From an uncultured virus (IMG/VR IMGVR_UViG_3300028228_000217) (lineage: Duplodnaviria > Heunggongvirae > Uroviricota > Caudoviricetes), in the IMG/VR virus record IMGVR_UViG_3300028228_000217: a stretch of DNA of 20,000 bases; one strand, 5' to 3'. Both the position numbers and the translations under genes were made by a program. Below, one piece after another: positions 859 to 18,009 of this stretch. Each line of letters starts with the position of its first letter. The stretch's first letter is position 1. Under the pieces are notes generated by a model. The model was not told the origin of the DNA and made no database searches. It was given only the letters and a program-made list of their open reading frames with translations.

Positions 859-2240
859 CTAGTATATTTTAATAAAGAAGCCGTTATCAGGATTGATTTT
901 CTTAGCACCGTTTATCATCTTATTCATAATACCAGATAAGTCTTTTTATTTTTTATAAAAAAATGCATTATTTTTAAACCTTGAATCTTCATAACCATAT
1001 TTTCAGCAATATCCATATTAGATTTTGCAATATTAATTGTTTTAACAAACTCTTTATAACTTATTTTTTTTCATTAAAAACTTTTGTGTCTTTAATAACA
1101 GTTTCATACATCTTATAAGTTTCTTTAAGTTTAGTTTCATCAAAATCTGAAAATGGTTTAGGTGTACCAAAATATTTTATACTATTAATTCTAGCATCCT
1201 TGTATTGACTCATAACACTATCAACCACTTTTGTAGGAATTTTTCCTAAACGACCTCCAGTTGGTGTACCATCAGATGTAATTTCGGTTTGTGCAGTACC
1301 ATAACCGTGAGGAAATCCTCTAACTTGTAAATTAATTGTTTTTTGTATCTTTATTTGTAAAGGTAAATAAACCTATTTCTTTACCTTCGATAGTTAAGTT
1401 ACAATTAAATTTTGATATTTCAATATCGTAATCTGACACTTTAGTTTGACCTGGTACATTTGTATAATCTACATTTGCTTTTTCTGCAATTATCTGTTTA
1501 AGAGAAATTGGATAAAGAATTTTATTTTCATAAAGATTATACAATTTATTGTTAAACATATTAATTAATCCATCTGAAATGTCATAAGTTTCTACTATTT
1601 TTTTCAGAGCTTTGATTACTTTTTCTCTTTCATTTTTCTTAATAATATAAACATCTGCTGGATTCCAGGAATCTGATTTTCCTAATTTTGATTTCTTTAA
1701 AAATTCTGTAATAGTTTTTCCAAAACTTGATTTATCGGTAGCGTCATGTATAATATCATAACTAGTTAAAGAACCTACAATTTTTTTAACTGCTGGACCT
1801 GTGAGTTGAAATGTGTTATACCAATCAGCAAAAGCCTCCGGGTCCCTTACGAATATAGATTGTTTAGTATCTTCAGCAGTTGCAATTTTTTTTCGCAAAG
1901 ACATTACAGTAGCTAACTCACCTGCGTCTGATAGTGCTTTACCTAAAGCATTTCTTGATTTGCCACCCATACCTGAGAATGGTGCTTTATCAATATCTGT
2001 AAATGTAAAATATTTTTTACCGTCCTGAAATATATAATCCCATTTATTATTAGGATAAAGTATCTTACTATATTTTGGAAAGTCTGTTTGTACTTTTTCT
2101 AAACTATCAATATTTTTAGTTCTTTTAAACAAGTAAGACTTACCATCTTTTACCTTAATCTTCGTGCCTTTTTTAATTTTAGCTACGATAGATACAATGT
2201 ATTTTGATTTAGATAAATCTGCTTTGCTGAATAATGCCAT
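859..2240 (-). CDS. Putative PD-(D/E)XK-fold nuclease-like protein of about 460 aa, split by apparent homopolymer frameshifts
   Basis: ORF 1332-2240 has AGELAT...DSWNPADVYII...YPISLKQ (E..D..xxK-like core). The reading frame resumes as INLQVRGFPHGYGTAQTEITSDGTPTGGRLGKIP... and ends ...GFFIKIY* at 859 if indels near 1339-1344, 1064-1071 and 943-947 are corrected. SD AGGAG upstream. Confidence 0.65.
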
Positions 2241-3914: not shown

Positions 3915-4224
3915 TATCTAATTTCTCCTCTAGTAGTTCTATTAAAATGTCGCCGATATAATCTATAAACTCTTTGTTGTCAAGCAATTCTAAATCATTA
4001 GGATTCTTATCAACTGTGTAATCAAATCTCATAGGCAACCTGCCATCTGGAAGTTCTTCCTCTTCCTTAGCTAGTTGCACTTTGCCATAATGATAAATTA
4101 CATCTTTGAATTTACCCTCTGTCAACTTGACACAAGAATGTTCTTCGCCACTTTTTTGAGCGAAGGTATATCTTTTAGTCTTCGTCTTGTCCGTATGTGA
4201 ATTTTCTTTTTGCATGTTCATCAA
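3892..4224 (-). CDS. Conserved hypothetical protein in the T4 gene 40 position (between uvsX and 41); start uncertain
   Basis: ORF overlaps both neighbours. Equivalence to gp40 is positional only. Confidence 0.7.
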
Positions 4225-5200
4225 TTTTATCTAATACTTCTTTTGTAAAATACTTTTCTGGATTCTCGTTGATAGTTTTACCAAATACTTTTGTACCATC
4301 AGCCATTTCAAACCTTGTAGATACTTTTGAAAACACACCAGCTTCTTCACCAAGTTCTAGTAAACCATAATGTCTATCTAGTCCTGTTTTGTATGTTAAC
4401 TTAACATCAATCATTGCATTTTCTTTGGTCAATCTTGACTTATAATTTTTACAATGAATAATATTACCAATAACTTCGGTACCATCTTTGTCTTTTCTTT
4501 TACTTAGATATATAATTGATGAAGCGGCGTACTTCAAACCTGAACCACCACCCATTTCTTTTTGTGGGAACATAGAACCAATAACATCATATGTATGGTT
4601 GGTCATAATCATTGGAATGCCAGCCTTACCTAATTTTAATGTTAAAACTCTGAATGTAGATTTTACAATTTGAGACCTTGTCATATCTCTTGTTTCTTTA
4701 CCAGCAGCCGTATCTTCCATTTCTTTTGTAGTCGATAACATACCCAAACTATCTAATACAAACAGTAAAGGTTTTCTATCTGACTCTTTTTGGCTTAAAT
4801 ATTTTTCAATCACTTTAATTGATTGACTTCTAAATTCTTGTACAGTTGCAACCGGAACAATTACCATTCTAGTAGCGTCAACACCTCTAGCTTCAATCAT
4901 ACTTTTTGAAATTGCACCCTCTGATTCAAAATAGATAACACCAGCTTCTTTGTTTACATCTAAAAAACTTTTACAGATACCTAATGCAAAGAAGGTCTTT
5001 CCTGTCGCAGCTTCTCCGGCAATTGCCGTAATTTTGTTTGCTGGCATACCACCATATATACTACCTGATAGTAACGCATTGAACGAATATGAGCCTGTGT
5101 CAATGAAACTGGTTACATCTGCACTATCAACACCCTCACTTACTAAACCAGCATATTCATTGCCAGTTTCTTTAATTATATCTTTTAAAAAATCACTCAT
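4175..5200 (-). CDS. uvsX: RecA-like recombinase UvsX
   Basis: [14 protein letters not shown], Walker [41 protein letters not shown]. Confidence 0.96.
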
Positions 5201-5252: not shown

Positions 5253-5489
5253 CTATTTTAATATCTCAACTTCACTATTCGTTTCAATGACAACTCTTGC
5301 ACCACAAGGTAGAATAGGTTTCTCACTACCACCATATCTAACTACACTATCACCTAAGATTTTAACTTCGTGACAATATCTATTAGTTTTACCTTGTTTA
5401 ACTGTAATAACAGGTTCATTGGTACCGTGTTTTTTGTTAGCTCTAATGACATGTTGATTGACATGTATGTAAGTTTTCGCTTTCTTCAT
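5253..5489 (-). CDS. Hypothetical phage protein (78 aa)
   Basis: ORF track; ATGA overlap with the upstream gene; IHVNQHVIRAN...LPCGARVVIET. Confidence 0.8.
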   Translation of the reverse strand: MKKAKTYIHVNQHVIRANKKHGTNEPVITVKQGKTNRYCHEVKILGDSVVRYGGSEKPILPCGARVVIETNSEVEILK

Positions 5490-6592
5490 CTTATAATATC
5501 TATCTTACTATCTTTAGTCCAGACCTCTAGGTCATTTCTAAGACGACCATCCTTATTTAGATTGTCAAATCTTTTTATGGCCATTTTTCTCCACCATTCT
5601 ATGATTTCTTTTTCATTATATCTGTCATAGTTTGGTGCCTTAACTATATCTTGTGTCTTACCATTTACAATGTCTATAAAGTTTTCTATACCATAGTTAC
5701 TTGCATAATATCTTTTTTGTTCGGTAAGATTTTTAGCATTTGCAATCGTAAGTTTAAATTTTTCTAAGTCATCACCTTCAAGTGTTTTCTTACATAGACC
5801 AATAATGCCGGTGGTCATTTTAAGTTTACGACTTGAAGCATCCGCTTTTACTAACTGACCTTTACCAATAATATTTTCAACATAGTCTACCATATCTAAG
5901 TATGGTTTACCATGCAACATAGGAATAAAATCTGACATTGTATTGCCTTTGTATCTTAAAAATGGTTTCATACCATCATACATTGAGGCACCTTTTGTTT
6001 TCCCATATAAAGATGTGGTTTCAAACAACACCAAGTTCATGTCATACTTCTTGTTTAACATCTCTCTAACTTGATGTGAACAACATAGACCAGCCAATAA
6101 TTTACCACCAAGATAATTAAAACCAAATGGCTGGCATGGTACAATTACAAAACCCATAATAGCAGTCTTGTTAAATACTTTTAAATCAGGTACATTACCT
6201 AACATATCGTTTCTAGGTTTACAGTTAATAACTGGCGAACCAAATCTCATAAAACCTACAAACTTACCTGTGTTCATTTCTTTTACTGCAAGCTTTAAAG
6301 TCTTACCAGGAATACTTGTCATATTACTATGACTTGATATCATATTAATACAGGTGTCCCATGTGTGATTATCTAGTTCTACAACTTGTAAATCCATGTC
6401 CTTTGGTGACATAGTAAAATCGCAAAACATATCACTATCAAACCCCATACCAGGAAGACTTGATGGTAATGATTCAATCTGAGCCATCTTTTGGTCACGC
6501 ATGTATTGGTCTATTCTTTCAAACTGACCAAAGTAGTCATTGAATATACCAGCACAATGTAGTGCCTGTTCTCTATCTAGGGTTTTCGCCAT
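5486..6592 (-). CDS. DUF4338 (DruA-like) family protein, probable GNAT-like fold
   Basis: Recognised motifs SIPGKTLKLAVKE..TGKFVGF..FGSP, VPCQPFGFNYLGGKLLA, FETTSLYG..SMYDG. Family call is from memory. Confidence 0.75.
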   Translation of the reverse strand: MAKTLDREQALHCAGIFNDYFGQFERIDQYMRDQKMAQIESLPSSLPGMGFDSDMFCDFTMSPKDMDLQVVELDNHTWDTCINMISSHSNMTSIPGKTLKLAVKEMNTGKFVGFMRFGSPVINCKPRNDMLGNVPDLKVFNKTAIMGFVIVPCQPFGFNYLGGKLLAGLCCSHQVREMLNKKYDMNLVLFETTSLYGKTKGASMYDGMKPFLRYKGNTMSDFIPMLHGKPYLDMVDYVENIIGKGQLVKADASSRKLKMTTGIIGLCKKTLEGDDLEKFKLTIANAKNLTEQKRYYASNYGIENFIDIVNGKTQDIVKAPNYDRYNEKEIIEWWRKMAIKRFDNLNKDGRLRNDLEVWTKDSKIDIIR

Positions 6593-6665
6593 TCATCTTC
6601 CATAACATTAATATAGGTACAGTATACACTAAACTCAACCAAAAGGCAAGCTCTAAGTATATCAT
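6573..6665 (-). CDS. Possible 30-aa membrane peptide MIYLELAFWLSLVYTVPILMLWKMNGENPR
   Basis: Hand translation; ATGA overlap with the MT-A70 stop; a single hydrophobic stretch; fills the gap to the DUF4338 gene. Confidence 0.45.
   Translation of the reverse strand: MIYLELAFWLSLVYTVPILMLWKMNGENPR
6621..6651 (-). promoter_or_regulatory. Sigma70-type promoter for the DUF4338 gene
   Basis: GC-TTGCCT-17 nt-TATACT followed by GTACCTATATTAA; closely matches the cobS promoter. Confidence 0.65.
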
Positions 6666-7198
6666 ACTTCATTACCCCAAAAGTCCCAATTCTCTCTGGT
6701 TTTCTTACGAGCAAACAGTTCAATATAGGGGCCCGGAACAAGTCTTTCAATTTCACCATGTAAAAGTGGTTTTTCGGAGTGTCGACCTCTTGGTGCAACC
6801 ACTAATTGAGCAACATCTTTATTGATTCGTTTTGGTCTACCTCTTGTTGCAAGTAAACACATTTCAGGATTACCTCTAGTCCAATAACCTAAACCTGTAA
6901 AAAATCCAAGTGTCTTTCTATTTGTTTTTGCCCATGTGAAACCTACTGTTTTATATTTAAATCCCCATGCGTCAATAACTTTTAATGCTTGGTCTAACAT
7001 AGGGTCACACACCCACATTAACAATACACAATCCTCATCTGCAATGTCCTTAACAGGTAAATTACAAATATCATTTAGTGACATACAATCATAATGTTTT
7101 TCAGGACTTTTATCTTTGCCTTTATCTGACCGTGTTCTAAACAACCATGGTGGGTCTGCATAGATTACTTTATATTTTTTGTTTGGTAAATCAGCCAA
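6662..7198 (-). CDS. MT-A70 family N6-adenine (or N4-cytosine) methyltransferase
   Basis: VIYADPPW catalytic motif, LLMWV, AWGFKYKT..FTWAK, GLGYWTRGNPEMCL, HSEKP, IELFAR; TTG start with GGAG SD. Confidence 0.92.
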   Translation of the reverse strand: MADLPNKKYKVIYADPPWLFRTRSDKGKDKSPEKHYDCMSLNDICNLPVKDIADEDCVLLMWVCDPMLDQALKVIDAWGFKYKTVGFTWAKTNRKTLGFFTGLGYWTRGNPEMCLLATRGRPKRINKDVAQLVVAPRGRHSEKPLLHGEIERLVPGPYIELFARKKTRENWDFWGNEV

Positions 7199-7583
7199 AG
7201 AAACTCTCCGTTTTAGTTGTTAATGTATTACAAAAGTCCTCACAACTTTTAAATGTTAAGTCAAAGTTTTTAGTTCTTGCCATCTCATTACAATGCATGA
7301 GTACAGTTGCACTAATCTTATGGTCACCTTTAATTATACACACATTACTGTAACCATATTTGTTATGGTACTTCCATAGTTTATGTGGTAATTTTTCTTC
7401 AACACTACCTACTGAATTCTGATTGGTACAATCTGCAAACACCTTACCATTATCAGTTTCAATTATGAAATCTATGGCATGGGCGCCTGGTTTTGCTCTT
7501 TGATAAGATATATTGTTTTCTTTACAATAGTTTTCTACTTTATCTTCAAGCAACTGACCTGATATGTTTACTGGATTATCCAA
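7191..7583 (-). CDS. Small PD-(D/E)XK superfamily nuclease-like protein
   Basis: SGQLLE...AIDFII...FADCTNQNSVGSVEEKLP resembles the E..D..ExKxQxxxGSxxEK family, with DCT at the ExK position; TTG start overlapping the gp43 stop. Confidence 0.65.
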   Translation of the reverse strand: MDNPVNISGQLLEDKVENYCKENNISYQRAKPGAHAIDFIIETDNGKVFADCTNQNSVGSVEEKLPHKLWKYHNKYGYSNVCIIKGDHKISATVLMHCNEMARTKNFDLTFKSCEDFCNTLTTKTESFFG

Positions 7584-10065
7584 AGAATGCCTCCAATGTT
7601 GCTTGTGGTTCTTCTTTCCAGTTTACAGCGTCCAGAATGAAACGCATAGGGTCAAGGAAAGTTTTCTGAAATTGTATATCATAATCAATATACTCTTGCA
7701 ATTTAAACTCTTCAGGTAGTGTGGTCATATAACTAATTACATCAAACTTAAATGGATTAGCAGGCTTAAGTTTGATAAATTTAATCTTATCTCCTTCTTG
7801 TATAATAGGATATTTACTTTGTAAACCTAGTCTATGTATTTGATAGTTGTAAACTAATGCACCTTTCACATGGATTGGTGTACCTTTAATAAAAATGTTT
7901 GCACTATCTTTATACTTTTTAAGATTGTTACAACTTCTAGGAAAGGCAATAGACTCTGCCGGTAATTGCATAAATTCTTTTCTAAAATCTGCAACAAGTT
8001 TATGTAAATCAGTTTCTTCTTTAGCCATGATAACCTTGATTGCCTCTTTAATCTTACCACGACAAACTTGTGGTGTAGATGACTTGACTGCCTCAATACC
8101 CATAAGTTTAAGTTTGGGGTCAGCAAGTCTAACTCCCTCATCATCAAGTACATTTAACATGTATCTTTTCTTTGCAACCCATATACCTTTATTGGCAACC
8201 ACTTCTCGTTTCATAACCATGGCATTTTTAAATGCGTTAGAATAATCTGCTAACTCATCAAAACATTTTTCAATAAATGGTTCAATCTTTTTGTCACAAA
8301 CTTTACCAAGAAAATCTATAATCTGTTCTTGACTTTTACCTTGACATGTTTTTTCTACAAGTTTATCAAATCTAACATAGATACTATCAGTATCAGAAGC
8401 AACAATATAATCTCGGTTTTCTCCACTTTGTAATATTTCATTTAAATATTTGTTTACCTTTTTCTCAATAAAACGAATAATAAATTGACCAGCAGTTGTA
8501 ATGCCGGCAGCCTGTCTAACATCATAGTATCTAAAGTATTGATTACCTACTGCACCATAAGCTGAGTTTAAGGCAATCTTCTTTGACCATTGAATGTTAT
8601 GGCACCTTGCAATCTCTTTGACAAGTTTAGGGTCTTTAGTCTTTTGATATTCGGCTTTCGCCTTCAACATTCTCTGTTTGAATACAACTCTTTCATTGTA
8701 CATTTTCTCCATCATTTCAGGAAGAAAACCTTGACTATCATTCTTAAACTTGGCACCGTTTGGTGTTATGCAAACTCCTTCTTGTTTAAGATTGTCAAGT
8801 GGTACAGTCATGTCAATCATTTTATTAACATTGACATTATAAGCTGATTCACCGAGTATCTTTTCAGGCGAAATATTGTATTGAATAATAATATGTGGAT
8901 ATAGTGAGTTAATATCAAACGAAACAATCCAGTCATGTTTACCTAGTATAGGTTCTTTAACATAAGCACCTTCATATTTCGTATCTTTAGTATTCTCTTG
9001 TCTTGGAGGAACACATATATTCTTTTTCATTAAATGATTAGCAATCAAGGTATCCCACACTCTAACTTGTGAGAATATGTCATCATAGTTTACCTTTGAA
9101 TCATATGCAACAGTAAGTGACAAGTCAATAAGACCTAACTTATCTTCTAATGCGTCAACAATTTCAACATCTTGAATATTGTAATCAACAAATGATTGAA
9201 AATCTTTAGTGTACCAATCTTTAAATGTATCAAAGCCGGCGTCATCTTTACCACGACCAAGTTCAACTTCACCAATATGGTCTAGTTTATAACTCTCTTG
9301 TCGTGTTGGAATAAACCACTTATACAAGTCTAGGTAATCTAACATAGAAATACCATAAAGATTGTAAGTAGTTTGTGGTCTACCATGTGTGATGACTTCA
9401 CCTTGGTTTACTATACCCCATGGCGACATCTTGTTTGCAACCGTTTCACCTGCAACCAATTTAATTCTGTTCATCAAGTATGGCAAATCAAAAAACTTGG
9501 TGTTCCAACCTGTGATAACATCTGGATAATTTTTAATCCAGAATTTCATAAACTCAAACATCAATTGTTTTTCGTCTTTACATTCAACATAAGTTACATC
9601 TAGTCGGTCAGTTACAAACTTACCTACACCCCATGTAATGATTTGTTTATTAGATTGATTTTTTACTGTAATACATAACAACTGTTCTTGTGGGTCTTGT
9701 ACATCTGGAAAACCACCTTCACAAGTTGTTTCAATATCAAGTGTAAAGATTTTAATATATTCTTTATCCCAATCAATATCTGTTGGATATTCTTGGCCAA
9801 TATATTGATAATGGTATCTTTCAAGACCATAGATAGGAGAATTTTGTGTTGCAATATCTTTACGAAATTTACGAGCTGCAAAAATATTGGTAAACTCAAT
9901 AGGTTTTAAAGATTGACCTTGTAGTGTTTTATAAACAGAGTCTTCTTGTGTTAATGAATATAAAGTAGGACCGAAATCAATTTTTTCTTTATACTCTTTA
10001 CCATTTAAGACACCTCGTATTAGAAGTTTGCCTCTGTGTTCAATTACATTTTTATAGAAGTTCAT
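7576..10065 (-). CDS. 43: Family B DNA polymerase (T4 gp43), uninterrupted
   Basis: ExoI DIET, ExoII GWNTKFFD, ExoIII YNIQD, polymerase motifs SFDINSLYP, KIALNSAYG, ASDTDS, KKRY; C-terminal clamp-binding-like TLEAFFG. Confidence 0.98.
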   Translation of the reverse strand: MNFYKNVIEHRGKLLIRGVLNGKEYKEKIDFGPTLYSLTQEDSVYKTLQGQSLKPIEFTNIFAARKFRKDIATQNSPIYGLERYHYQYIGQEYPTDIDWDKEYIKIFTLDIETTCEGGFPDVQDPQEQLLCITVKNQSNKQIITWGVGKFVTDRLDVTYVECKDEKQLMFEFMKFWIKNYPDVITGWNTKFFDLPYLMNRIKLVAGETVANKMSPWGIVNQGEVITHGRPQTTYNLYGISMLDYLDLYKWFIPTRQESYKLDHIGEVELGRGKDDAGFDTFKDWYTKDFQSFVDYNIQDVEIVDALEDKLGLIDLSLTVAYDSKVNYDDIFSQVRVWDTLIANHLMKKNICVPPRQENTKDTKYEGAYVKEPILGKHDWIVSFDINSLYPHIIIQYNISPEKILGESAYNVNVNKMIDMTVPLDNLKQEGVCITPNGAKFKNDSQGFLPEMMEKMYNERVVFKQRMLKAKAEYQKTKDPKLVKEIARCHNIQWSKKIALNSAYGAVGNQYFRYYDVRQAAGITTAGQFIIRFIEKKVNKYLNEILQSGENRDYIVASDTDSIYVRFDKLVEKTCQGKSQEQIIDFLGKVCDKKIEPFIEKCFDELADYSNAFKNAMVMKREVVANKGIWVAKKRYMLNVLDDEGVRLADPKLKLMGIEAVKSSTPQVCRGKIKEAIKVIMAKEETDLHKLVADFRKEFMQLPAESIAFPRSCNNLKKYKDSANIFIKGTPIHVKGALVYNYQIHRLGLQSKYPIIQEGDKIKFIKLKPANPFKFDVISYMTTLPEEFKLQEYIDYDIQFQKTFLDPMRFILDAVNWKEEPQATLEAFFG

Positions 10066-10381
10066 CTTTTCTTAATTTCACCGTTACATTATTTAATTCA
10101 TCATTTAGTTGTATCTGACATGCCAATCTTGACTTGTCTGCGATATAACCTTTCTCATATTCCAACAACTCTTGTTCTAAAGAGTTATCTTTTATCTTTA
10201 ACTGTGGCCATTGTAACACATCTACATAGATATGGCAAGTCGCACACGCACAACATCCACCACAGTCAGCAGGTATCTCTGGTAAATCCAGTTCTTTAGC
10301 TGCTTCCATGATGGTATAACCAACAGGTATCTCTGTCGATAATGTTTCACCATTCTCTCTTACAAAATTAACTTTTACCAT
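10052..10381 (-). CDS. fdx: 2Fe-2S ferredoxin (adrenodoxin/ISC type)
   Basis: CGGCCACATCH (C-x5-C-x2-C) and SRLACQ. Confidence 0.93.
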   Translation of the reverse strand: MVKVNFVRENGETLSTEIPVGYTIMEAAKELDLPEIPADCGGCCACATCHIYVDVLQWPQLKIKDNSLEQELLEYEKGYIADKSRLACQIQLNDELNNVTVKLRKDELL

Positions 10382-10709: not shown

Positions 10710-12095
10710 CTAATCTAAACTATATTTAGTTGTTACTACATATTTTCTTTGTGGGTTTACCATCACATTTAAACGATTCATAAACTCACGGTCAAGTAAG
10801 ATAGGTGTTCTATCTTCTCTATCATCAATGGTAAATTCTACATCTTTGTAGTAACCACCGGCGAATTCTACATCTAGTTTTACGACATATCGGTCTTCAT
10901 CATAATCTCTTAAACCACCAACTGATATTTTTTCTTTACGAATCACATCACTTGTTAATGTTTTACCTAGTAGTGACCAAGTAATAGTTTTGCCATTTGG
11001 TGACATTTTATCTGCATGAATAACTGGCATGCCTGAGTTACCTGTATCAAACTTTGATACAATTTCACCGAAAGGTTTAACGGTTAAGATTTCTTTATAA
11101 CCACACTCTGTTGGTACTGTATATCTATTTTCTTTCTTAGCAAAGTGTTGTATAACTTCCTTTGCAATGTTCATTTTAGAAGCTTCTTCAATACCCTCTG
11201 TACCTGGACTTGAATTTACTTCTAAGAAATAACATGGTTTATTTTCTCTGTCTTTACTTGGTATAAAGTCAACAGCAGTCCAATAACCACCAACTGCCTT
11301 AGCAGCCTTTAAACATTCTTTTATCTCTAAATCTGTTAGTTTATAATCTTTTGGTACTGAACCTTGTGATACATTTGACCTAAAATCTCCTTCAATAACA
11401 GGTCTCATCATAGAGGCTAATATTTTACCACCTAGTACATGCACTCTAACATCATACTCTGTTTTAATATACTCTTGCACCAATAGGTCAGCGTCTTCGT
11501 CTTGTTTATTAATAAGTTGTACAATTGAGTGTAAACTTTTAGGACTTTCAACAAACAATACACCAACACCTTTACTACCTCTAAGTGTTTTCATAATTAA
11601 AGGAAACTTAATACCAGCTTCTTCAACCATATCAACTGAGTTTTCGGGGTCATTGATTAACTTGGTCATTGGTTGTCTTAAACCATAATCTGCAAGTCTT
11701 AAAGAGGTTCTGTATTTGTCGGCACACATATTGATAGTAGTTCTTGGATTTACTAATGTTGCATTAGCCTTTTCAAGCATAGACACTAAGTCCATCCAAC
11801 TATCTTTTCTGACCACACTACCACGAATGATAGCAACTGTCATTGCACCTACTTCAAAACCTTTCTTATCGTCTTTGTTATGAAACTTACGGATACCATC
11901 TTCATAGGTTGTATAACCACCAGTTAACTTAAACAGATAGAATGGATAATTTAACTTCTTACATTCCTCTTGTAGTCTATCGGCAGTATGAAATTCTTTT
12001 GCACCCTCTGGCTCATCTGTAATAATGAGCAGACGCAAAAACTTTTTATTGTCTGTAGCTTCTTCTAAGTAATTTTTAAACGGTTGTACTTGCAT
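10710..12095 (-). CDS. rimK: RimK-family ATP-grasp ligase fused to a C-terminal retropepsin-like (RimB-like) protease domain
   Basis: CADKYRT, FPLIMKTLRGSKGVGV, LVQEYI, DVRVHV, FRSNVSQG, AVDFI, LEVNSSPG; then CGYKE...SKFDTGNSG...DRYVVKL...EFTIDDR...PILLDREFM. Confidence 0.88.
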   Translation of the reverse strand: MQVQPFKNYLEEATDNKKFLRLLIITDEPEGAKEFHTADRLQEECKKLNYPFYLFKLTGGYTTYEDGIRKFHNKDDKKGFEVGAMTVAIIRGSVVRKDSWMDLVSMLEKANATLVNPRTTINMCADKYRTSLRLADYGLRQPMTKLINDPENSVDMVEEAGIKFPLIMKTLRGSKGVGVLFVESPKSLHSIVQLINKQDEDADLLVQEYIKTEYDVRVHVLGGKILASMMRPVIEGDFRSNVSQGSVPKDYKLTDLEIKECLKAAKAVGGYWTAVDFIPSKDRENKPCYFLEVNSSPGTEGIEEASKMNIAKEVIQHFAKKENRYTVPTECGYKEILTVKPFGEIVSKFDTGNSGMPVIHADKMSPNGKTITWSLLGKTLTSDVIRKEKISVGGLRDYDEDRYVVKLDVEFAGGYYKDVEFTIDDREDRTPILLDREFMNRLNVMVNPQRKYVVTTKYSLD

Positions 12096-12914: not shown

Positions 12915-13868
12915 CTATTTAAATTTACAGTTAGCCATAATCTCCGTCAAACACGCAACCATATTAATCTCTTGGTCTGCCACGAAAGCAGACTTGTACT
13001 GATAACCAGCAATGATTAATATTGATTGTGGAATAGAAGAAGATTCTAAAGACTTATACATTAACTCGTAAACACTAGTAAACAATGATGACGGTTCTTT
13101 GTCAAGATTATTAATAACCCATTTACGCATGTCATTAAATCTTTTTTCTTTTAAGATTTTGACCAGTTCTTTTGTATTTGCCTCAGATAAACTAAACAAA
13201 ATACCACTATCGACTTTACCTCTTACAGAATATCTTTGAAGTTCATTGATAGTCCGTCTAAAGTCTGGATAATATTTCTGAATTAACTCAGCTAATACTT
13301 TGGTATCATATTCAATACCTTCTTCATCAAGGACTTTGCCTAGCCTTTGTAATAACGCCTGTGCTGTCTTTACTCTTTGACCATTTTTAATGGCAAAGTC
13401 TATAACGGTACATCTACTATGCAAAGCAGGTAAAATCTTATTCTTGTAATTACAAGTAAAGATAAATCTACAGTTTTTGTAAAATGTTTCAATGAAGTTT
13501 CTTAAAGCAGGTTGTACGGACTCGGCATTCATATAGTCTGCCTCGTCAATAATCACAACTTTATGATTTGAATGTTCAGTTAATGATACAGTAGAAGCAA
13601 AGTTCTTAATCTTGTTTCTTAATGTATCAATCTGACGGCCTTCATCTGAACCGTTTATGATGATGTAATCTGCACCAAGTTCCTCACACAATGCACGAGC
13701 AACAGTAGTCTTACCAGTACCAGCAGTACCAGCTAATAACAGATTAGGTATTTCTTTTTGTTTTAAAAATTGAGTAAATGTAGTTTTTAACTCTTCCGTT
13801 AAAATACAATCCTCAATACGCTTTGGCCTGTAAGCTTCCACCCAAAGGAAGTCTTTTGACTTTTCCAT
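12915..13868 (-). CDS. 44: Clamp loader large subunit (T4 gp44)
   Basis: LWVEAYRP, GTAGTGKT, IIDEAD, SRC motif, YPDFRR. Confidence 0.97.
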   Translation of the reverse strand: MEKSKDFLWVEAYRPKRIEDCILTEELKTTFTQFLKQKEIPNLLLAGTAGTGKTTVARALCEELGADYIIINGSDEGRQIDTLRNKIKNFASTVSLTEHSNHKVVIIDEADYMNAESVQPALRNFIETFYKNCRFIFTCNYKNKILPALHSRCTVIDFAIKNGQRVKTAQALLQRLGKVLDEEGIEYDTKVLAELIQKYYPDFRRTINELQRYSVRGKVDSGILFSLSEANTKELVKILKEKRFNDMRKWVINNLDKEPSSLFTSVYELMYKSLESSSIPQSILIIAGYQYKSAFVADQEINMVACLTEIMANCKFK

Positions 13869-14475
13869 TCTTCACCTCTTTCATTATTATATAATTTTTA
13901 ACACCAGTTTTTCTACTTGCCTCACTAATAGATGCATAGTTTTTACCTTTATATTTAATAGGAACAGCATTTGATGGAGTTTTCCCATACATACCATTCT
14001 TTTTACCTCGGACTTTATCGGAGATTGATTTGATTTCTGCTTCAGTATAATTGTTCCATCTTTCTTTAGTTAATTTAGAAAGAGTGGATTTTTGTTCTTC
14101 ACTTTGTTTCTTACCCAACATTCCGTATGTAGCATATGATTCTCTAGTTTTAGTTTTATGATATTTTTTCATACTTTTTATAAAATTAATACTATTACTT
14201 GTATCTCCACCATCATTACCATTAGTCATATTATAATGAGGTTTTAGTTTAGAAATAGTATCAACTTCTAACAATTTAGATTTACCTTCTTTTATTAATT
14301 CAACATAAAAATTATCTTTTCCATTTTTTCTCATAGCTCTGTATAGATGTGTTTTCATATTTAAATTAAATGCATTATATAAATGTCTAGCAAATCTTTC
14401 TTCTAAAGATTTGGAGGTATATCCTATATAAAATTTTTTATTTACTTTATTTGTAATCTTGTATATTTTTATCAT
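13813..14475 (-). mobile_element. Free-standing GIY-YIG (Seg-like) homing endonuclease with NUMOD-type DNA-binding tail
   Basis: MIKIYKITNKVNKKFYIGYT...ERFARH...E...HYN; GMLGKKQSEEQK and GKKNGMYGK (NUMOD3-like); YASISEASRKTG (NUMOD1/HTH-like). Likely start is ATG 14475, not 14562. Very AT-rich; overlaps the gene 44 start by 56 nt. Confidence 0.9.
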
Positions 14476-14480
14476 ACAAG

Positions 14481-14488
14481 TATTTATA
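14481..14488 (-). promoter_or_regulatory. T4-type late promoter of the homing endonuclease
   Basis: TATAAATA separated from the ATG at 14475 by 5 nt. Confidence 0.75.
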
Positions 14489-14512
14489 AGACAGTAATTC
14501 TCTAAAAACCCA

Positions 14513-14860
14513 TTATTTATTTTCAATTGTAAACTTGTCAACGATTTCAGCATCAACATCATAACCGCCTTTATTCATTGTCCAACAATCTTCTTCACGG
14601 TCATAATCGTGCTCTGATACAAATTCTTGGACTTTATCAGCCAACTCTTTATCTTCTTGTGAAGATTTGTGATAATCGTTGCAATCAAAGTAAAGACCTT
14701 TTTCAAAGGTAGGTAAATCACCAAACTCCTTTATAATATCAGAAACAGCAATTTGTCTGTTAAGATAGTGTGTTGTTTGATGATATTCTCTGGTTTCTAC
14801 TTTGATATAGTCGTCTGAATTGTATTCGGTACCATCTTCTAGCTTATATGTATCGGACAT
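14513..14860 (-). CDS. Acidic hypothetical protein (115 aa)
   Basis: Likely start MSDTYKLEDG at 14860, 1 nt after the gp45 stop; the upstream part of the ORF-track call overlaps gp45. Confidence 0.75.
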   Translation of the reverse strand: MSDTYKLEDGTEYNSDDYIKVETREYHQTTHYLNRQIAVSDIIKEFGDLPTFEKGLYFDCNDYHKSSQEDKELADKVQEFVSEHDYDREEDCWTMNKGGYDVDAEIVDKFTIENK

Positions 14861-14861
14861 A

Positions 14862-15527
14862 TTAAAACTCACTATCAGGTTCGATTGCAATCCAATATTG
14901 AATTGGTTTGTTTCGATTGATAAAGTGTGAGATTTTTTGTGCTGAAATAGCCACATCATAATCATCTCTAATCATTTTAAAGTTCTCAGTTTTAAAATAA
15001 GCCGTAAAGGTCTTATCTGTTTCTCCGATAACAAATGAATAGTCATTTGACGCTGGCGTTTTCTTATCAGTTGCAACTAAACTAATCTCTTTACCATTAC
15101 CTTTTACTGCAATGTCTGGTAGATTAAGTGTTGTTACACCTTTCATTAATTTTTCAAAGACATCTTTCTTCAAAGAAAATGTTACATACTTATCAGGCAT
15201 GGTAATCATTTTAGACGGCGAAACTACCACCGACTTGTCTGCAAAATAATATTTGATTGATTGTTTACTATTACTATCTTTAATAGTTAGGTTTTGACCA
15301 CCATTAAATGCAAGGTCTGACTTATCAAATAAGTCAACAGCCCTTAAAAATTCTGGTAAATCGTAGATAGCAAACTCTTGTTCAAACTTTTCTGATACAT
15401 CAGCTTCAGCTAATATATTTTTTAAAGTTGAAATGGTTTGTAGTTGGTTGCCTGGCTTAACCAAAATATTCTGGTTAATATCTGAAAAGTTTTTCAGAAT
15501 AGCAATTGTATCACTAGTTATGTTCAT
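14862..15527 (-). CDS. 45: Sliding clamp (T4 gp45)
   Basis: TIAILKNFSDINQNILVKPG...FAIYDLPEFL...YWIAIEPDS; 221 aa; upstream of genes 44/62. Confidence 0.95.
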   Translation of the reverse strand: MNITSDTIAILKNFSDINQNILVKPGNQLQTISTLKNILAEADVSEKFEQEFAIYDLPEFLRAVDLFDKSDLAFNGGQNLTIKDSNSKQSIKYYFADKSVVVSPSKMITMPDKYVTFSLKKDVFEKLMKGVTTLNLPDIAVKGNGKEISLVATDKKTPASNDYSFVIGETDKTFTAYFKTENFKMIRDDYDVAISAQKISHFINRNKPIQYWIAIEPDSEF

Positions 15528-15553: not shown

Positions 15554-15627
15554 TGGAGCGGAGTGATTGTACTGCCCAATCTTCTCTTGGTTGGAAACCA
15601 AGTGTGTTACTTTTATACTAACTCCGC
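15554..15627 (-). tRNA. tRNA-Gly(UCC) with non-canonical D and T loops, CCA encoded
   Basis: GCGGAGT TA GTAT AAAAGTA ACAC A CTTGG TTTCCAA CCAAG AGAA GATTG GGCAGTA CAATC ACTCCGC T CCA: perfect 7-bp acceptor, 5-bp anticodon and 5-bp T stems; U73. Confidence 0.92.
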
Positions 15628-15644
15628 ATTTGTTCATATTATAC

Positions 15645-15675
15645 ATTATACTCTAAAGGCGTCCTATTGTCAAGC
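15645..15675 (-). promoter_or_regulatory. Consensus sigma70 promoter driving tRNA-Gly and gene 45 onward
   Basis: GC-TTGACA-17 nt-TATAAT, a perfect consensus. Confidence 0.9.
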
Positions 15676-16261: not shown

Positions 16262-17398
16262 TTAAATATTCTCTAGTTTATCCTCCGGGATAGCTTTGAA
16301 AATATCTTTTCGGCTAATTAGAACCTGTTTTCTATTCAGATTCTTCTTACTCCATCTATTGATATTTTTAATCAGTTCATAAACAGGTTTCATAACATCT
16401 TTATTTTTACCTGAATTAGGAAATATATCTGATTGTTCAAATTGACCTGACCACTCCATAAACCATCCTTCAAAGACTTCTTTATTAATTTTATTATCAA
16501 AATAGTGTCTGATAATTGTTAACACAGATAAAGCTCCTGTTAAGATTTCACTATCTGTTTGATATGCCTTTCTAAGCAAATTAACATTATCTTTTACTAT
16601 TTCATAATCAAACTCTTTGATAATAGCCATTAAAGATGATGGAGAAGATATTTTTTTCAAAACTTTACCGTTTTGTTTCACTTGATTTTTAATATTAAAT
16701 CCCATGTCAACTAAAACTCTCATTGTATTTTCATATTGAGGTTCGCCAGCTTGAGCACCTGAAACTAATCTATCTTCAGCACCTTGGTTTGTTCTTCTAT
16801 CACTATCTGTGTGATGAATAATAGCACCAAACTTTCTGATTTCATCTAAAGATGTTTCTTTACCTAAACAAACAACTCTAGCAAATACAGGTGCACCAAG
16901 TCCACTTACAATAATAGATTTTGCTGTACAATGATTACCAATCACGGTTACAAATTTATATGTTCCGTCTTTAGCATAATATACAACTACGGTAATATTC
17001 ATAGCTTGCCAAAATAAACCTTCTCTTAAATCTAAATGTGTAGATATATTTGTAAAATTGATATTGTCTCCTCTATTGTGAATGATATTGGTGTATATCA
17101 TATCATTAGGAATCCAAGCATAAGTATCAAAACTACGACCTTTTCTGATTTTCTGGTCAATTGTTTGAAAATCAACACCGTCAGGTTTAATACCTATTTC
17201 TTTCCATCCTCTATCAGATTTTAATTCTGATGGTGTGAATGGATATTTTTTTCTTGTGTTGAAATGTTTATCAACTTGTCCACTAATTGAAAACAAATGT
17301 TTGCTTTCTTCATAGGCATTTAGTGATTTTTTTAAGTCGATATTTTTTACTGCGTCAGGTAACTTGTAGTCACCTTTTCTTAGGTCTGATATATACAT
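16262..17398 (-). CDS. Hypothetical protein, probable divergent ParB/Srx-like (DUF6551-like) domain
   Basis: AWIP..IY.NIIHNR...VVVYYAKDGTYKFVTVIGNHC...HTDSDRRTNQGAEDRLVSGAQAGE parallels YQR...viDGQHR...N..r...drf.a...ag; strong SD AAGGAGG. Confidence 0.55.
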   Translation of the reverse strand: MYISDLRKGDYKLPDAVKNIDLKKSLNAYEESKHLFSISGQVDKHFNTRKKYPFTPSELKSDRGWKEIGIKPDGVDFQTIDQKIRKGRSFDTYAWIPNDMIYTNIIHNRGDNINFTNISTHLDLREGLFWQAMNITVVVYYAKDGTYKFVTVIGNHCTAKSIIVSGLGAPVFARVVCLGKETSLDEIRKFGAIIHHTDSDRRTNQGAEDRLVSGAQAGEPQYENTMRVLVDMGFNIKNQVKQNGKVLKKISSPSSLMAIIKEFDYEIVKDNVNLLRKAYQTDSEILTGALSVLTIIRHYFDNKINKEVFEGWFMEWSGQFEQSDIFPNSGKNKDVMKPVYELIKNINRWSKKNLNRKQVLISRKDIFKAIPEDKLENI

Positions 17399-17772: not shown

Positions 17773-17806
17773 CTATTTATTCATGTTATAAGCACAGGCG
17801 GGAATT

Positions 17807-18009
17807 CTATCTATCTTGTTCCAATTTTTTCTGGTTCTTTTTATAGTTTTTAATACCTTCTTTTTCTTTTCCCTTTTAATTTCAGATGGTTTTTGATAGT
17901 GTTGTCTAGCTCTTAACTCTTTTACTAGACCTTCTTTCATAACCTTCTTCTTTAAAACTCTCATAGCTTTTTCGAGGTTACCACCTCTAACTTCTACAGT
18001 TATACTCAT
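17807..18009 (-). CDS. rpsU: Ribosomal protein bS21 (67 aa after correcting an apparent 1-nt homopolymer deletion)
   Basis: MSITVEVRGGNLEKAMRVLKKKVMKEGLVKELRARQHYQKPSEIKR; adding one A at 17861-17865 gives ...KKKEGIKNYKKNQKKLEQDR* ending at 17807; SD GGAGG. Confidence 0.9.

What the first reader, a model, noticed from the sequence alone, without database searches (positions are those of the whole stretch)
5486..6592. Hypothesis: DUF4338 enzyme plus non-canonical tRNA-Gly form a tRNA-dependent DNA hypermodification system
Seen: a DUF4338-like gene with its own promoter sits between gene 43 and uvsX, beside an MT-A70 methyltransferase, in the same replication module as the odd tRNA-Gly. Established: GNAT-fold enzymes (FemX, L/F-transferase) use aminoacyl-tRNA, and phage Mu Mom is a GNAT-fold enzyme making N6-carbamoylmethyladenine. 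From recall and needing verification: Mom has been reported to use Gly-tRNA as donor. Inference: if DUF4338 is Mom/GNAT-like, this phage carries both the transferase and a private donor tRNA to modify newly replicated DNA against restriction. The genes are about 9 kb apart, so the link is not shown by adjacency.
Basis: inference. Interest (0 to 1): 0.85.

Follow-up and report, generated by a model that had tools for sequence, protein, structure and literature searches.

The report
Phage Mom-like enzyme and odd glycine tRNA
An ocean T4-like phage has an enzyme shaped like phage Mu's DNA-decorating Mom protein and an oddly built glycine tRNA, and comparison with related phages suggests, without proving, that the tRNA feeds glycine to such enzymes.

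Summary
Both parts are real. ORF 5486-6592 (-) is a 368-aa DruA/DUF4338-family protein between gp43 and uvsX, beside an MT-A70 methylase. Its confident model is a GNAT fold. The best solved match is phage Mu Mom (8BV8, Z 10.4, 185 residues), statistically tied with ordinary GNATs. There is no sequence-level link to the Mom family.

The tRNA at 15557-15627 (-) is a tRNA-Gly(UCC) that ARAGORN misses. It has strong cloverleaf covariation, an encoded CCA and non-canonical D and T loops.

New evidence for a link:
- Of 28 complete Kyanoviridae genomes, 12 of 13 with the gene carry a tRNA-Gly, against 2 of 15 without it. Only 4 of 5 independent contrasts agree, which is not significant.
- One related lineage has gp43, the gene and the odd tRNA directly adjacent.
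- True Mom genes sit directly upstream of the same tRNA in 6 of 62 loci.

Against a link:
- The tRNA's neighbours are mostly unrelated genes.
- The cyanophage tRNA-Gly genes are canonical.
- The donor substrate is untested.

The scan noted the same idea before on other DNA.

The parts
5486..6592 (-). DruA/DUF4338-family GNAT-fold transferase, 'short paralogue' (P0001, 368 aa)
6610..6649 (-). promoter-like sites in the 69-nt gap upstream of the gene, including motif TTAGTGTATACT at 6621-6632
   Evidence: consensus matches only
15554..15627 (-). non-canonical tRNA-Gly(UCC) with encoded CCA. It has G1-C72, C2-G71, G3-C70 and U73, D loop AAAAGUA without GG, and T loop GGCAGUA instead of UUCRANY
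15645..15656 (-). motif TTAGAGTATAAT 18 nt upstream of the tRNA. It is the same 12-mer pattern as the one upstream of the GNAT gene
   Evidence: two exact matches in the window; with 1 mismatch 8 found against 5.0 expected, not significant
6662..7198 (-). MT-A70 type DNA adenine methyltransferase, upstream neighbour (context). It is absent from this position in HTVC008M and in the gp43-gene-tRNA lineage
7191..7583 (-). PD-(D/E)XK nuclease-fold protein between gp43 and the methyltransferase (context)
7576..10065 (-). gp43 family-B DNA polymerase. In relatives the GNAT gene follows it directly
5253..5489 (-). 78-aa ORF (phrog_8676) overlapping the GNAT gene's stop; a counterpart is present in HTVC008M
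4175..5200 (-). uvsX RecA-like recombinase (module boundary)

Best explanation
The 368-aa protein is a DruA-family GNAT-fold transferase. It is built like phage Mu Mom: a GNAT core with a helical insertion before the last strand and a basic C-terminal helix. It is expressed from the replication module of marine T4-like phages. I read it as a nucleic-acid, most likely DNA, modifying aminoacyl-transferase that takes glycine from Gly-tRNAGly. The phage's own tRNA-Gly adds to or reserves that donor pool. In the pelagiphage lineage the tRNA keeps what I recall as the GlyRS identity elements and an encoded CCA but has lost the canonical D/T-loop elbow. This resembles the staphylococcal non-proteogenic tRNAGly that serve Fem transferases. 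Shown here: the fold, the family, the tRNA's reality and oddity, the co-occurrence, and the adjacency in one lineage. Inferred: the acceptor (DNA), the donor (Gly-tRNA), any dedication of the tRNA, and the anti-restriction purpose.
For: Fold: the AF2 model has pLDDT 91.5 and pTM 0.88. Foldseek finds GNAT-type enzymes only. With VIA-align, 8bv8_A Mu Mom ranks first with Z 10.4, rmsd 4.4 and 185 of 222 residues aligned over model 63-312. Other GNATs align 139-156 residues. In BFVD, Mom of Salmonella phage FSL SP-031 is the first match that carries a functional family name (rank 9, E 2.4e-3). A published cyanophage annotation calls the orthologue 'methylcarbamoylase mom' on structural grounds. 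Mechanistic precedent: Mom transfers Gly from Gly-tRNAGly to N6-A of dsDNA (PMC13219725). Location: the gene always sits in the replication module, either after gp43 or between gp44 and gp62. Co-occurrence in 28 complete genomes: 12 of 13 with the gene have a tRNA-Gly against 2 of 15 without it (Fisher p 7e-5). Among genomes with 5 or fewer tRNAs the figures are 3 of 4 against 0 of 11 (p 0.009). Mosig (gp43 87% identical to the window) lacks both the short gene and any tRNA-Gly. Synteny: 7 of 7 related contigs with at least 8.5 kb upstream of the gene hold the odd tRNA. 9 of 10 odd-tRNA loci with at least 9.9 kb downstream hold the gene. Adjacency: gp43-gene-(59-61 nt)-odd tRNA in L229, L258 and L277, and with one 176-aa ORF between them in L238 and L267. 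True Mom-family genes (PF25680, E 1e-56) lie directly upstream of the same tRNA in 6 of 62 loci with enough flank. tRNA: cloverleaf 95.6% paired, 13 of 21 pairs with double changes, 0 of 500 shuffles as high, slid controls 34-50% paired. Relatives carry up to three tRNA-Gly genes (odd UCC, ACC, GCC) among very few tRNAs. Precedent for dedicated tRNAGly(UCC): PMC7826273.
Against: There is no sequence-level relation to Mom. No PF25680 hit at E<=0.01, no hit with my own Mom profile, and hhalign probability 0.3%. The invariant loop after strand 4 (QPFGxNYLGGKLL) resembles the CoA-pyrophosphate motif Q/RxxGxG/A, so an acyl-CoA donor is not excluded. By order of secondary-structure elements, Mom's essential R111, S124, D149 and R151 have no obvious conserved counterparts (my inference; no superposition was possible). 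The phylogenetic control is weak: 5 independent pairs, 4 in the same direction, 0-1 opposite, sign test p 0.125-0.375. There are exceptions. S-B68 has the gene but no tRNA-Gly. S-CAM4 and S-RIM44 have tRNA-Gly but no gene and no Mom. The cyanophage tRNA-Gly(UCC) genes are canonical, mostly 20-150 kb from the gene, and belong to the usual NNA-codon tRNA sets. The odd tRNA sits in a variable slot whose upstream neighbours are mostly Redoxin (14), hsp20 (13) and Dam-type methylase (10) of 75 loci. Two fragments (L257, L240) hold it in an unrelated context with no DruA gene. L262 and S-SSM7 carry both Mom and the DruA-type gene, so the two are not simply interchangeable.
Confidence: 0.36

Rival explanations
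1. It is an ordinary acyl-CoA-dependent GNAT acyltransferase acting on a protein, a small molecule or a nucleotide during replication. The tRNA-Gly is simply a translation tRNA supplying GGA/GGG codons or a high glycine demand. Gene and tRNA co-occur through shared ancestry and larger tRNA sets.
For: Most structural matches are acetyl-CoA enzymes within 1 Z of Mom. The invariant QPFGxN...GGK loop lies where GNATs bind CoA pyrophosphate. Cyanophage tRNA-Gly(UCC) is canonical and sits in tRNA clusters with other NNA-reading tRNAs. Gene-positive genomes have more tRNAs overall. The independent-pairs test is not significant. The odd tRNA's neighbours are mostly unrelated genes.
Against: In genomes with 5 or fewer tRNAs, tRNA-Gly appears in 3 of 4 gene carriers and 0 of 11 non-carriers. 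HTVC008M's only tRNA is a tRNA-Gly. The pelagiphage tRNA lacks the D/T-loop consensus expected of a ribosomal tRNA, yet it is strongly conserved. Direct gp43-gene-tRNA adjacency occurs in one lineage, and Mom-tRNA adjacency in six loci.
Confidence: 0.34
2. It is an aminoacyl-tRNA-dependent transferase whose acceptor is not DNA, for example a protein N-terminus as with L/F-transferase, or a cell-envelope or lipid precursor as with FemX or MprF.
For: FemA (1lrz) is among the tied matches (Z 9.0, 199 residues aligned, rmsd 6.0). The tRNA-Gly association says nothing about the acceptor.
Against: The protein has a single GNAT domain rather than the Fem tandem. Its constant place is inside the replication module. 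Mom gives the longest alignment, including the insertion.
Confidence: 0.1
3. The GNAT acts on charged tRNA-Gly rather than with it, by TacT-like N-acetylation of Gly-tRNAGly. The phage tRNA-Gly would be a resistant or compensating copy.
For: According to PMC13219725, the GNAT TacT takes Gly-tRNAGly as its substrate. The CoA-like loop and the tRNA-Gly association would both fit.
Against: TacT-type toxins are small single-domain proteins. This protein has about 200 extra residues, including a Mom-like insertion. Blocking glycine decoding would harm phage translation as well (inference).
Confidence: 0.07
4. It is a phage-borne DruA mimic that interferes with host Druantia type I defence and has no catalytic role.
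For: It belongs to the DruA family.
Against: About 18 positions are invariant or nearly so around the GNAT active-site loops across relatives of 20-47% identity. The family is present in phages of SAR11 and picocyanobacteria and in giant viruses. No Druantia partner genes are nearby.
Confidence: 0.04

Closest known systems
Phage Mu Mom (Pfam PF25680; PDB 8BV8), the Gly-tRNAGly-dependent N6-adenine DNA modifier (PMC13219725)
   Same: Both have a GNAT core with a helical insertion before the last strand. Mom is the top solved-structure match and gives the longest alignment. Both are phage-encoded. True Mom genes lie directly upstream of the same odd tRNA-Gly family in 6 of 62 loci.
   Different: There is no detectable sequence homology. 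The protein is 368 aa against 241 aa, with an extra N-terminal helical region and a larger insertion. Mom's essential residues are not evidently conserved (inference). It sits in the replication module rather than being a late gene under Com control. Its activity is unknown.
DruA (DUF4338, PF14236) of Druantia type I defence
   Same: Sequence family membership above Pfam's cut-off and the PADLOC DruA1 model.
   Different: Only the central 110 residues match, at 29.9 bits. There are no DruB-E neighbours and it is encoded by a virus. A second, longer paralogue in the same phages matches DruA much better (65-83 bits). My searches found no paper giving DruA's biochemical function.
Staphylococcal non-proteogenic tRNAGly(UCC) NP1-3, glycine donors for FmhB/FemA/FemB (PMC7826273)
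   Same: Both are tRNA-Gly with a UCC anticodon and with departures in the D and T arms. Both are linked with a GNAT-fold transferase that uses, or may use, Gly-tRNA.
   Different: The phage tRNA is viral and has a different T loop (GGCAGUA). No EF-Tu, ribosome or transferase data exist for it. Most copies are not next to a GNAT gene.
Ordinary phage tRNA-Gly(UCC) of cyanomyoviruses
   Same: Same anticodon and acceptor stem start GCG...CGC-U73. It co-occurs with the same GNAT gene.
   Different: It has canonical GG in the D loop and GTTCRA in the T loop. ARAGORN detects it, Rfam scores it 62-75 bits, and it usually sits in tRNA clusters far from the gene.

Membership tests
DruA / DUF4338 (PF14236) | Match to the family HMM above the curated cut-off | tested here: met
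   29.9 bits against a cut-off of 27, E 4e-7, residues 87-195 on profile positions 71-181 of 297. PADLOC DruA1 E 1.6e-6.
Druantia type I system | DruA encoded with DruB, DruC, DruD and the DruE helicase | tested here: not met
   The neighbours are gp43, an MT-A70 methylase, a PD-(D/E)XK protein and uvsX. No Druantia partner appears among the 25 window ORFs scanned.
GNAT superfamily | GNAT fold (mixed sheet with strands 4 and 5 splayed, helices on both sides) | tested here: met
   Model pLDDT 91.5. 270 of 997 re-aligned chains reach Z>=8, and all 50 entries shown are acyltransferases or GNAT-type proteins. Foldseek probability 0.96-1.00 for the compact single-domain GNAT matches.
GNAT superfamily | Motif A, Q/R-x-x-G-x-G/A, for CoA pyrophosphate (motif recalled) | tested here: inconclusive
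   The invariant stretch Q154-P-F-G157-x-N...G162-G163-K164 fits partly (Q-x-x-G-x-N). No ligand modelling was possible.
Mom family (PF25680) | Match to the Mom HMM or profile | tested here: not met
   No PF25680 hit at E<=0.01. A Mom profile built from A2 finds nothing in the window. hhalign of A1 against A2 gives probability 0.3%, E 0.18. Positive control: Mu Mom scores 2.4e-75.
Mom family (PF25680) | HTH-like insertion between the last two GNAT strands, essential in Mom (PMC13219725) | tested here: inconclusive
   The model has three helices (228-287) between strands 213-217 and 294-298. The alignment to 8bv8_A spans 63-312 with 185 residues. No residue-level superposition is available.
Mom family (PF25680) | Catalytic residues R111, S124, D149, R151 | not testable with these tools
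   The tools return ranges only. By order of secondary-structure elements I see no conserved counterparts (inference).
Mom family (PF25680) | Uses Gly-tRNAGly to modify dsDNA adenine | not testable with these tools
   Only indirect evidence: co-occurrence and adjacency.
Fem / L-F transferase type aminoacyl-tRNA transferases | Tandem GNAT-like domains (Fem) and structural match standing above other GNATs | tested here: not met
   The model has a single GNAT core. FemA 1lrz reaches Z 9.0 at rmsd 6.0, inside the tie with other GNATs.
tRNA (RF00005) | Covariance-model score above gathering and a cloverleaf supported by covariation | tested here: met
   42.6 bits against 29. On 37 distinct sequences: 95.6% paired, 13 of 21 pairs with compensatory changes, 0 of 500 shuffles as high, slid controls 34-50% paired.
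Canonical elongator tRNA | G18G19 in the D loop and T54-Psi55-C56 (UUC) in the T loop | tested here: not met
   D loop AAAAGUA and T loop GGCAGUA, nearly invariant in 36 of the 37 aligned sequences; HTVC008M's Gly(ACC) row has different loops. ARAGORN fails to call it.
tRNA-Gly (bacterial GlyRS substrate) | G1-C72, C2-G71, G3-C70, U73, C35, C36 (identity set recalled from knowledge) | tested here: met
   All are present and invariant in the alignment. CCA is encoded in 35 of 37 rows; L209 reads UCG and L220 is cut after CC. Actual charging was not tested.
Non-proteogenic tRNAGly (staphylococcal type) | Weak EF-Tu and ribosome binding, preferred by the transferase | not testable with these tools
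   Only the sequence oddities are seen. T-stem pair 51-63 is U-A or A-U in 31 of 37 sequences; the affinity was not computed.

The most novel reading that the evidence does not exclude
Abundant ocean T4-like phages run a two-part DNA hypermodification system. One part is a DruA-family GNAT, unrelated in sequence to Mom, that glycylates newly made phage DNA. The other is a phage-encoded, non-proteogenic-style tRNA-Gly that GlyRS charges but the translation machinery largely ignores, so DNA modification does not compete with protein synthesis. By extension, DruA of Druantia type I would be an aminoacyl-tRNA-dependent DNA-marking enzyme, the counterpart of the methylase DruM of type II (recalled from knowledge; from no call).
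Probability: 0.18. Interest if true: 0.9.

Novelty: new variant of a known kind. Interest (0 to 1): 0.62.

Why it matters
tRNA-dependent DNA modification has one proven example, Mu Mom (2026). If a second, sequence-unrelated GNAT family in very abundant marine phages does the same with a phage-supplied donor tRNA, three things follow. It would show that this chemistry is widespread in the ocean virome. It would give the first viral case of a tRNA kept for a non-ribosomal job. It would also give a testable function for DruA, the uncharacterised first gene of Druantia type I. Cultured carriers exist (HTVC008M, S-SM2, S-SSM7, S-CAM9, S-T4), so nucleoside mass spectrometry can settle the question. 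Separately, the odd tRNA-Gly is missed by standard tRNA finders. HTVC008M is listed with 0 tRNAs in Table 1 of PMC7029224, so tRNA counts for pelagimyophages are too low.

Tried and rejected
- Sequence search of PDB chains with the family profile: only two chance-level hits, E 0.36 and 0.42.
- hhalign against Mu Mom alone and against a 30-sequence Mom alignment: probability 0.2-0.3%. The short stretch it aligned (strands 2-3 and the following loop) is topologically sensible but not significant.
- Window's own genome: not held, so I used the nearest record, G001.
- Shared promoter idea: the 12-mer TTAGWGTATWNT occurs exactly only upstream of the gene and of the tRNA. With one mismatch it also lies upstream of uvsX and another gene, and 8 matches against 5.0 expected is not significant. 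I read it as a general early-type -10 region, not a specific link.
- Whether a Mom-family gene explains the two tRNA-Gly-positive, gene-negative cyanophages (S-CAM4, S-RIM44): it does not. PF25680 is found in 1 of 30 records, S-SSM7 only.
- Adjacency of Mom and the tRNA as proof of function: weakened, because the same slot holds Redoxin, hsp20, Dam-type methylase, HNH and unknown genes (cluster labels rest on one or two representatives each).
- Literature: no paper found that links DruA to GNAT by those words, or that holds DruA, DruB and DruC together. Passages of the YprA/Druantia preprint contain no 'GNAT' or 'acetyltransferase'.
- Not attempted: complex prediction, read mapping and a fold of Mom for residue mapping.
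Full report
**What is there**

The window is the replication module of a T4-like marine phage, with every gene on the minus strand. The nearest named relatives are the SAR11 phages Mosig EXVC030M (gp43 87% identical) and HTVC008M.

ORF 5486-6592 (-) encodes 368 aa. It matches Pfam PF14236, DruA (the former DUF4338), just above the cut-off: 29.9 against 27 bits, residues 87-195 only. It also matches PADLOC DruA1 and, over its full length, the functionless phrog_19197.

The gene lies between gp43 and uvsX. In this phage an MT-A70 methyltransferase and a PD-(D/E)XK protein are inserted between gp43 and the gene. In HTVC008M the orthologue follows gp43 directly. The family is very large in marine metagenomes: 6,499 proteins at E<=0.001 among 7,306 candidates and 699 representatives at 50% identity.

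**Fold**

A 43-sequence alignment (A1) gave an AlphaFold2 model with mean pLDDT 91.5 and pTM 0.88.
- Foldseek against the PDB returns only GNAT-type enzymes, at weak E-values.
- Re-alignment of Foldseek's best 1000 chains puts 8bv8_A, phage Mu Mom S124A, first: Z 10.4, rmsd 4.4, 185 of 222 residues, model 63-312. Ordinary acetyl-CoA GNATs follow at Z 9.9-9.0 with 139-156 residues, and FemA at Z 9.0.
Mom stands out only by the longer alignment. That fits the model's three-helix insertion (228-287) before the last strand, the place where Mom has its essential HTH-like insertion (section 13 of PMC13219725).
- In the viral library the top matches are uncharacterised giant-virus proteins. A Mom protein is the first match with a functional family name, at rank 9 (E 2.4e-3).

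At sequence level there is nothing:
- no PF25680 hit;
- no hit with a Mom profile of my own;
- hhalign probability 0.3% against a 30-sequence Mom alignment;
- no PDB relative by profile.

So the protein works from a Mom-like scaffold but is not a member of the Mom family. The invariant loop QPFGxNYLGGKLL after strand 4 partly resembles the CoA-binding motif of GNATs, which keeps an acyl-CoA donor open.

**Literature**
- One passage of PMC10853773 calls DUF4338 a GNAT domain.
- PMC13219725 shows that Mom transfers glycine from Gly-tRNAGly to N6 of adenine in dsDNA, followed by an on-base rearrangement. All three E. coli tRNAGly isoacceptors serve as donors. I read the abstract and sections 10, 13, 14, 38 and 47. 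The paper does not mention Druantia or cyanophages.
- PMC12801897 annotates the S-SCSM2R orthologue as 'methylcarbamoylase mom' from structural similarity (passages only).
- The 2023 preprint and the 2020 Mom paper I saw only as search listings.
- My searches found no paper tying a DruA-family protein to a phage tRNA-Gly.

**The tRNA**

ARAGORN finds no tRNA in the window. Rfam RF00005 scores 42.6 bits at 15557-15627 (-).
- The anticodon loop is UUUCCAA (Gly, UCC).
- The acceptor stem starts G1-C72, C2-G71, G3-C70, followed by U73 and an encoded CCA. From my own knowledge these are the bacterial GlyRS identity elements.
- The D loop is AAAAGUA, without GG. The T loop is GGCAGUA in place of UUCRANY.

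80 loci were fetched, holding 47 distinct variants. On 37 distinct sequences:
- the cloverleaf is 95.6% paired;
- 13 of 21 pairs show compensatory changes (149 cells);
- 0 of 500 shuffles score as high, and slid controls reach only 34-50% paired.

The odd loops are nearly invariant. This is a real, constrained tRNA with a non-canonical elbow. HTVC008M has a related tRNA-Gly(ACC), although Table 1 of PMC7029224 lists it with 0 tRNAs. Relatives add a canonical tRNA-Gly(GCC) and a tRNA-Thr, or a tRNA-Gly(ACC) between gp44 and gp62. The staphylococcal non-proteogenic tRNAGly(UCC), which feed Fem transferases and bind EF-Tu weakly through D/T-arm features (PMC7826273, passages), are the obvious analogy.

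**Is there a link? Evidence for**

1. *Complete genomes.* I took 13 Kyanoviridae genomes with the gene and 15 without it, verified with the A1 profile: 14 of 28 hit, of which Mosig hits only through a longer paralogue. I listed every Rfam tRNA and typed them with ARAGORN.
   - tRNA-Gly is present in 12 of 13 carriers (all but S-B68) and in 2 of 15 non-carriers (S-CAM4, S-RIM44). Fisher p = 7e-5.
   - Among genomes with at most 5 tRNAs the figures are 3 of 4 against 0 of 11 (p = 0.009).
2. *Close relatives.* Mosig, the window's closest named relative, lacks both the short gene and any tRNA-Gly; its tRNAs are Pro, Arg and Leu.
3. *Synteny.* All 7 related contigs with at least 8.5 kb upstream of the gene hold the odd tRNA. 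9 of 10 odd-tRNA loci with at least 9.9 kb downstream hold the gene.
4. *Adjacency.* In another lineage (gp43 about 50% identical) the order is gp43, the gene, then the odd tRNA 59-61 nt later (L229, L258, L277). In L238 and L267 one 176-aa ORF lies between them, and in L243 the tRNA is 2.4 kb upstream.
5. *True Mom genes.* Genuine Mom-family genes (PF25680, E about 1e-56) lie directly upstream of the same tRNA in L228, L272, L262, L220, L266 and (split) L242. That is 6 of 62 loci with enough upstream flank.

**Evidence against**
- On a gp43 tree the gene changes state 6 times and gives only 5 independent pairs. tRNA-Gly goes the same way in 4 and the opposite way in 0-1, with sign test p 0.125-0.375. 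The raw association is inflated by shared ancestry.
- The tRNA-Gly(UCC) genes of the cyanophages are canonical. All but S-SSM7's lie 20-150 kb from the gene, in clusters of NNA-reading tRNAs. The 'non-canonical private tRNA' is therefore a trait of the pelagiphage-type lineages only.
- The odd tRNA sits in a variable slot. Of 75 loci with an upstream ORF, that ORF is a Redoxin in 14, hsp20 in 13, a Dam-type methylase in 10, Mom in 6 and the DruA-type gene in 3. Labels come from one or two representatives per cluster.
- Two fragments (L257, L240) carry the tRNA beside a tRNA-Asp in an unrelated context without the gene.
- L262 and S-SSM7 hold both Mom and the DruA-type gene, so the two enzymes probably do different things.

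**Further context**

These phages have two DruA-family paralogues. A longer one (about 435 aa, 65-83 bits to PF14236) lies near the peptidase, MazG and PDF genes, outside the window. The short one studied here scores 27-41 bits. In cyanophages the short gene lies between gp44 and gp62. It is thus always inside the replication module, which fits action on DNA or nucleotides.

**Verdict**

It is still inference, and no base modification or donor has been shown. I give:
- about 0.36 to a Gly-tRNA-dependent, Mom-like nucleic-acid modification;
- about 0.34 to an ordinary acyl-CoA GNAT with an unrelated translational tRNA;
- the rest to other acceptors or roles.

Earlier notes of this scan on other DNA reached the same idea (e1-5912687, e1-5618212) and reported Mom beside this tRNA (e1-5818277). 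I re-tested that adjacency here.

Noticed in passing
outside the window: G001:C1:4390-5088; L104 5644-6942 (Mosig); L001 26636-27730 (HTVC008M): A second, longer DruA-family paralogue (about 435 aa, 65-83 bits to PF14236) lies next to the peptidase, MazG and peptide deformylase genes in pelagimyophages. Mosig has only this one.
   Followed up: partly
L228 3340-4155, L272 2880-3710, L262 9068-9907, L220 4900-5577, L266 8459-9136, L242 1772-2602: Genuine Mom-family genes (PF25680, E about 1e-56 for the two scanned) lie directly upstream (36-82 nt) of the odd tRNA-Gly in marine T4-like contigs. In L242 the gene looks split into two ORFs.
   Followed up: partly
L201-L280, the ORF just upstream of the odd tRNA: The tRNA marks a variable slot. 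Upstream neighbours fall into 16 clusters: Redoxin (14), hsp20 (13), D12/Dam-type N6-adenine methylase (10), Mom (6), an HNH-containing 460-aa protein (3), DUF6433 (4) and several with no Pfam match.
   Followed up: partly
L273 12715-12789; L255 9558-9632; L001 22681-22754: A tRNA-Gly with the unusual anticodon ACC occurs between gp44 and gp62 in some relatives and is the only tRNA of HTVC008M. The published pelagimyophage table lists HTVC008M with 0 tRNAs.
   Followed up: partly
S-SSM7 GU071098.1 216832-217392 and 151563-151633: S-SSM7 has a Mom-family gene about 100 nt after its four-tRNA cluster. Its tRNA-Gly sits apart from that cluster, just upstream of gp43 and 3.2 kb beyond the end of the DruA-type gene.
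   Followed up: no
window 15557-15627 (-): The window's copy has an A12-C23 mismatch in the D stem, which relatives compensate (U-A or A-U). D-stem pair 13-22 is unpaired in 22 of 37 sequences, so the D stem may effectively be 3 bp.
   Followed up: partly
window 10710-12095 (-), 10052-10381 (-), 17773-18009 (-), 13813-14562 (-): The module also holds a RimK-type ATP-grasp protein with a C-terminal Zn-protease-like part, a 2Fe-2S ferredoxin, a ribosomal protein S21 gene, and a GIY-YIG (homing-endonuclease-like) ORF between gp44 and gp45.
   Followed up: no
window 1332-2240 (-), 16262-17398 (-), 14513-14965 (-): Three sizeable ORFs have no Pfam match. Two hit only PHROGs of unknown function (phrog_1462, phrog_15918).
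   Followed up: no
BFVD matches to the model: The best viral structural relatives are uncharacterised giant-virus proteins (Faunusvirus, Yasminevirus, Dasosvirus; up to 1,260 aa). Several 450-710-aa 'endonuclease-like' or homing-endonuclease proteins of myoviruses also align over 250-290 columns, which hints at GNAT-nuclease fusions.
   Followed up: no
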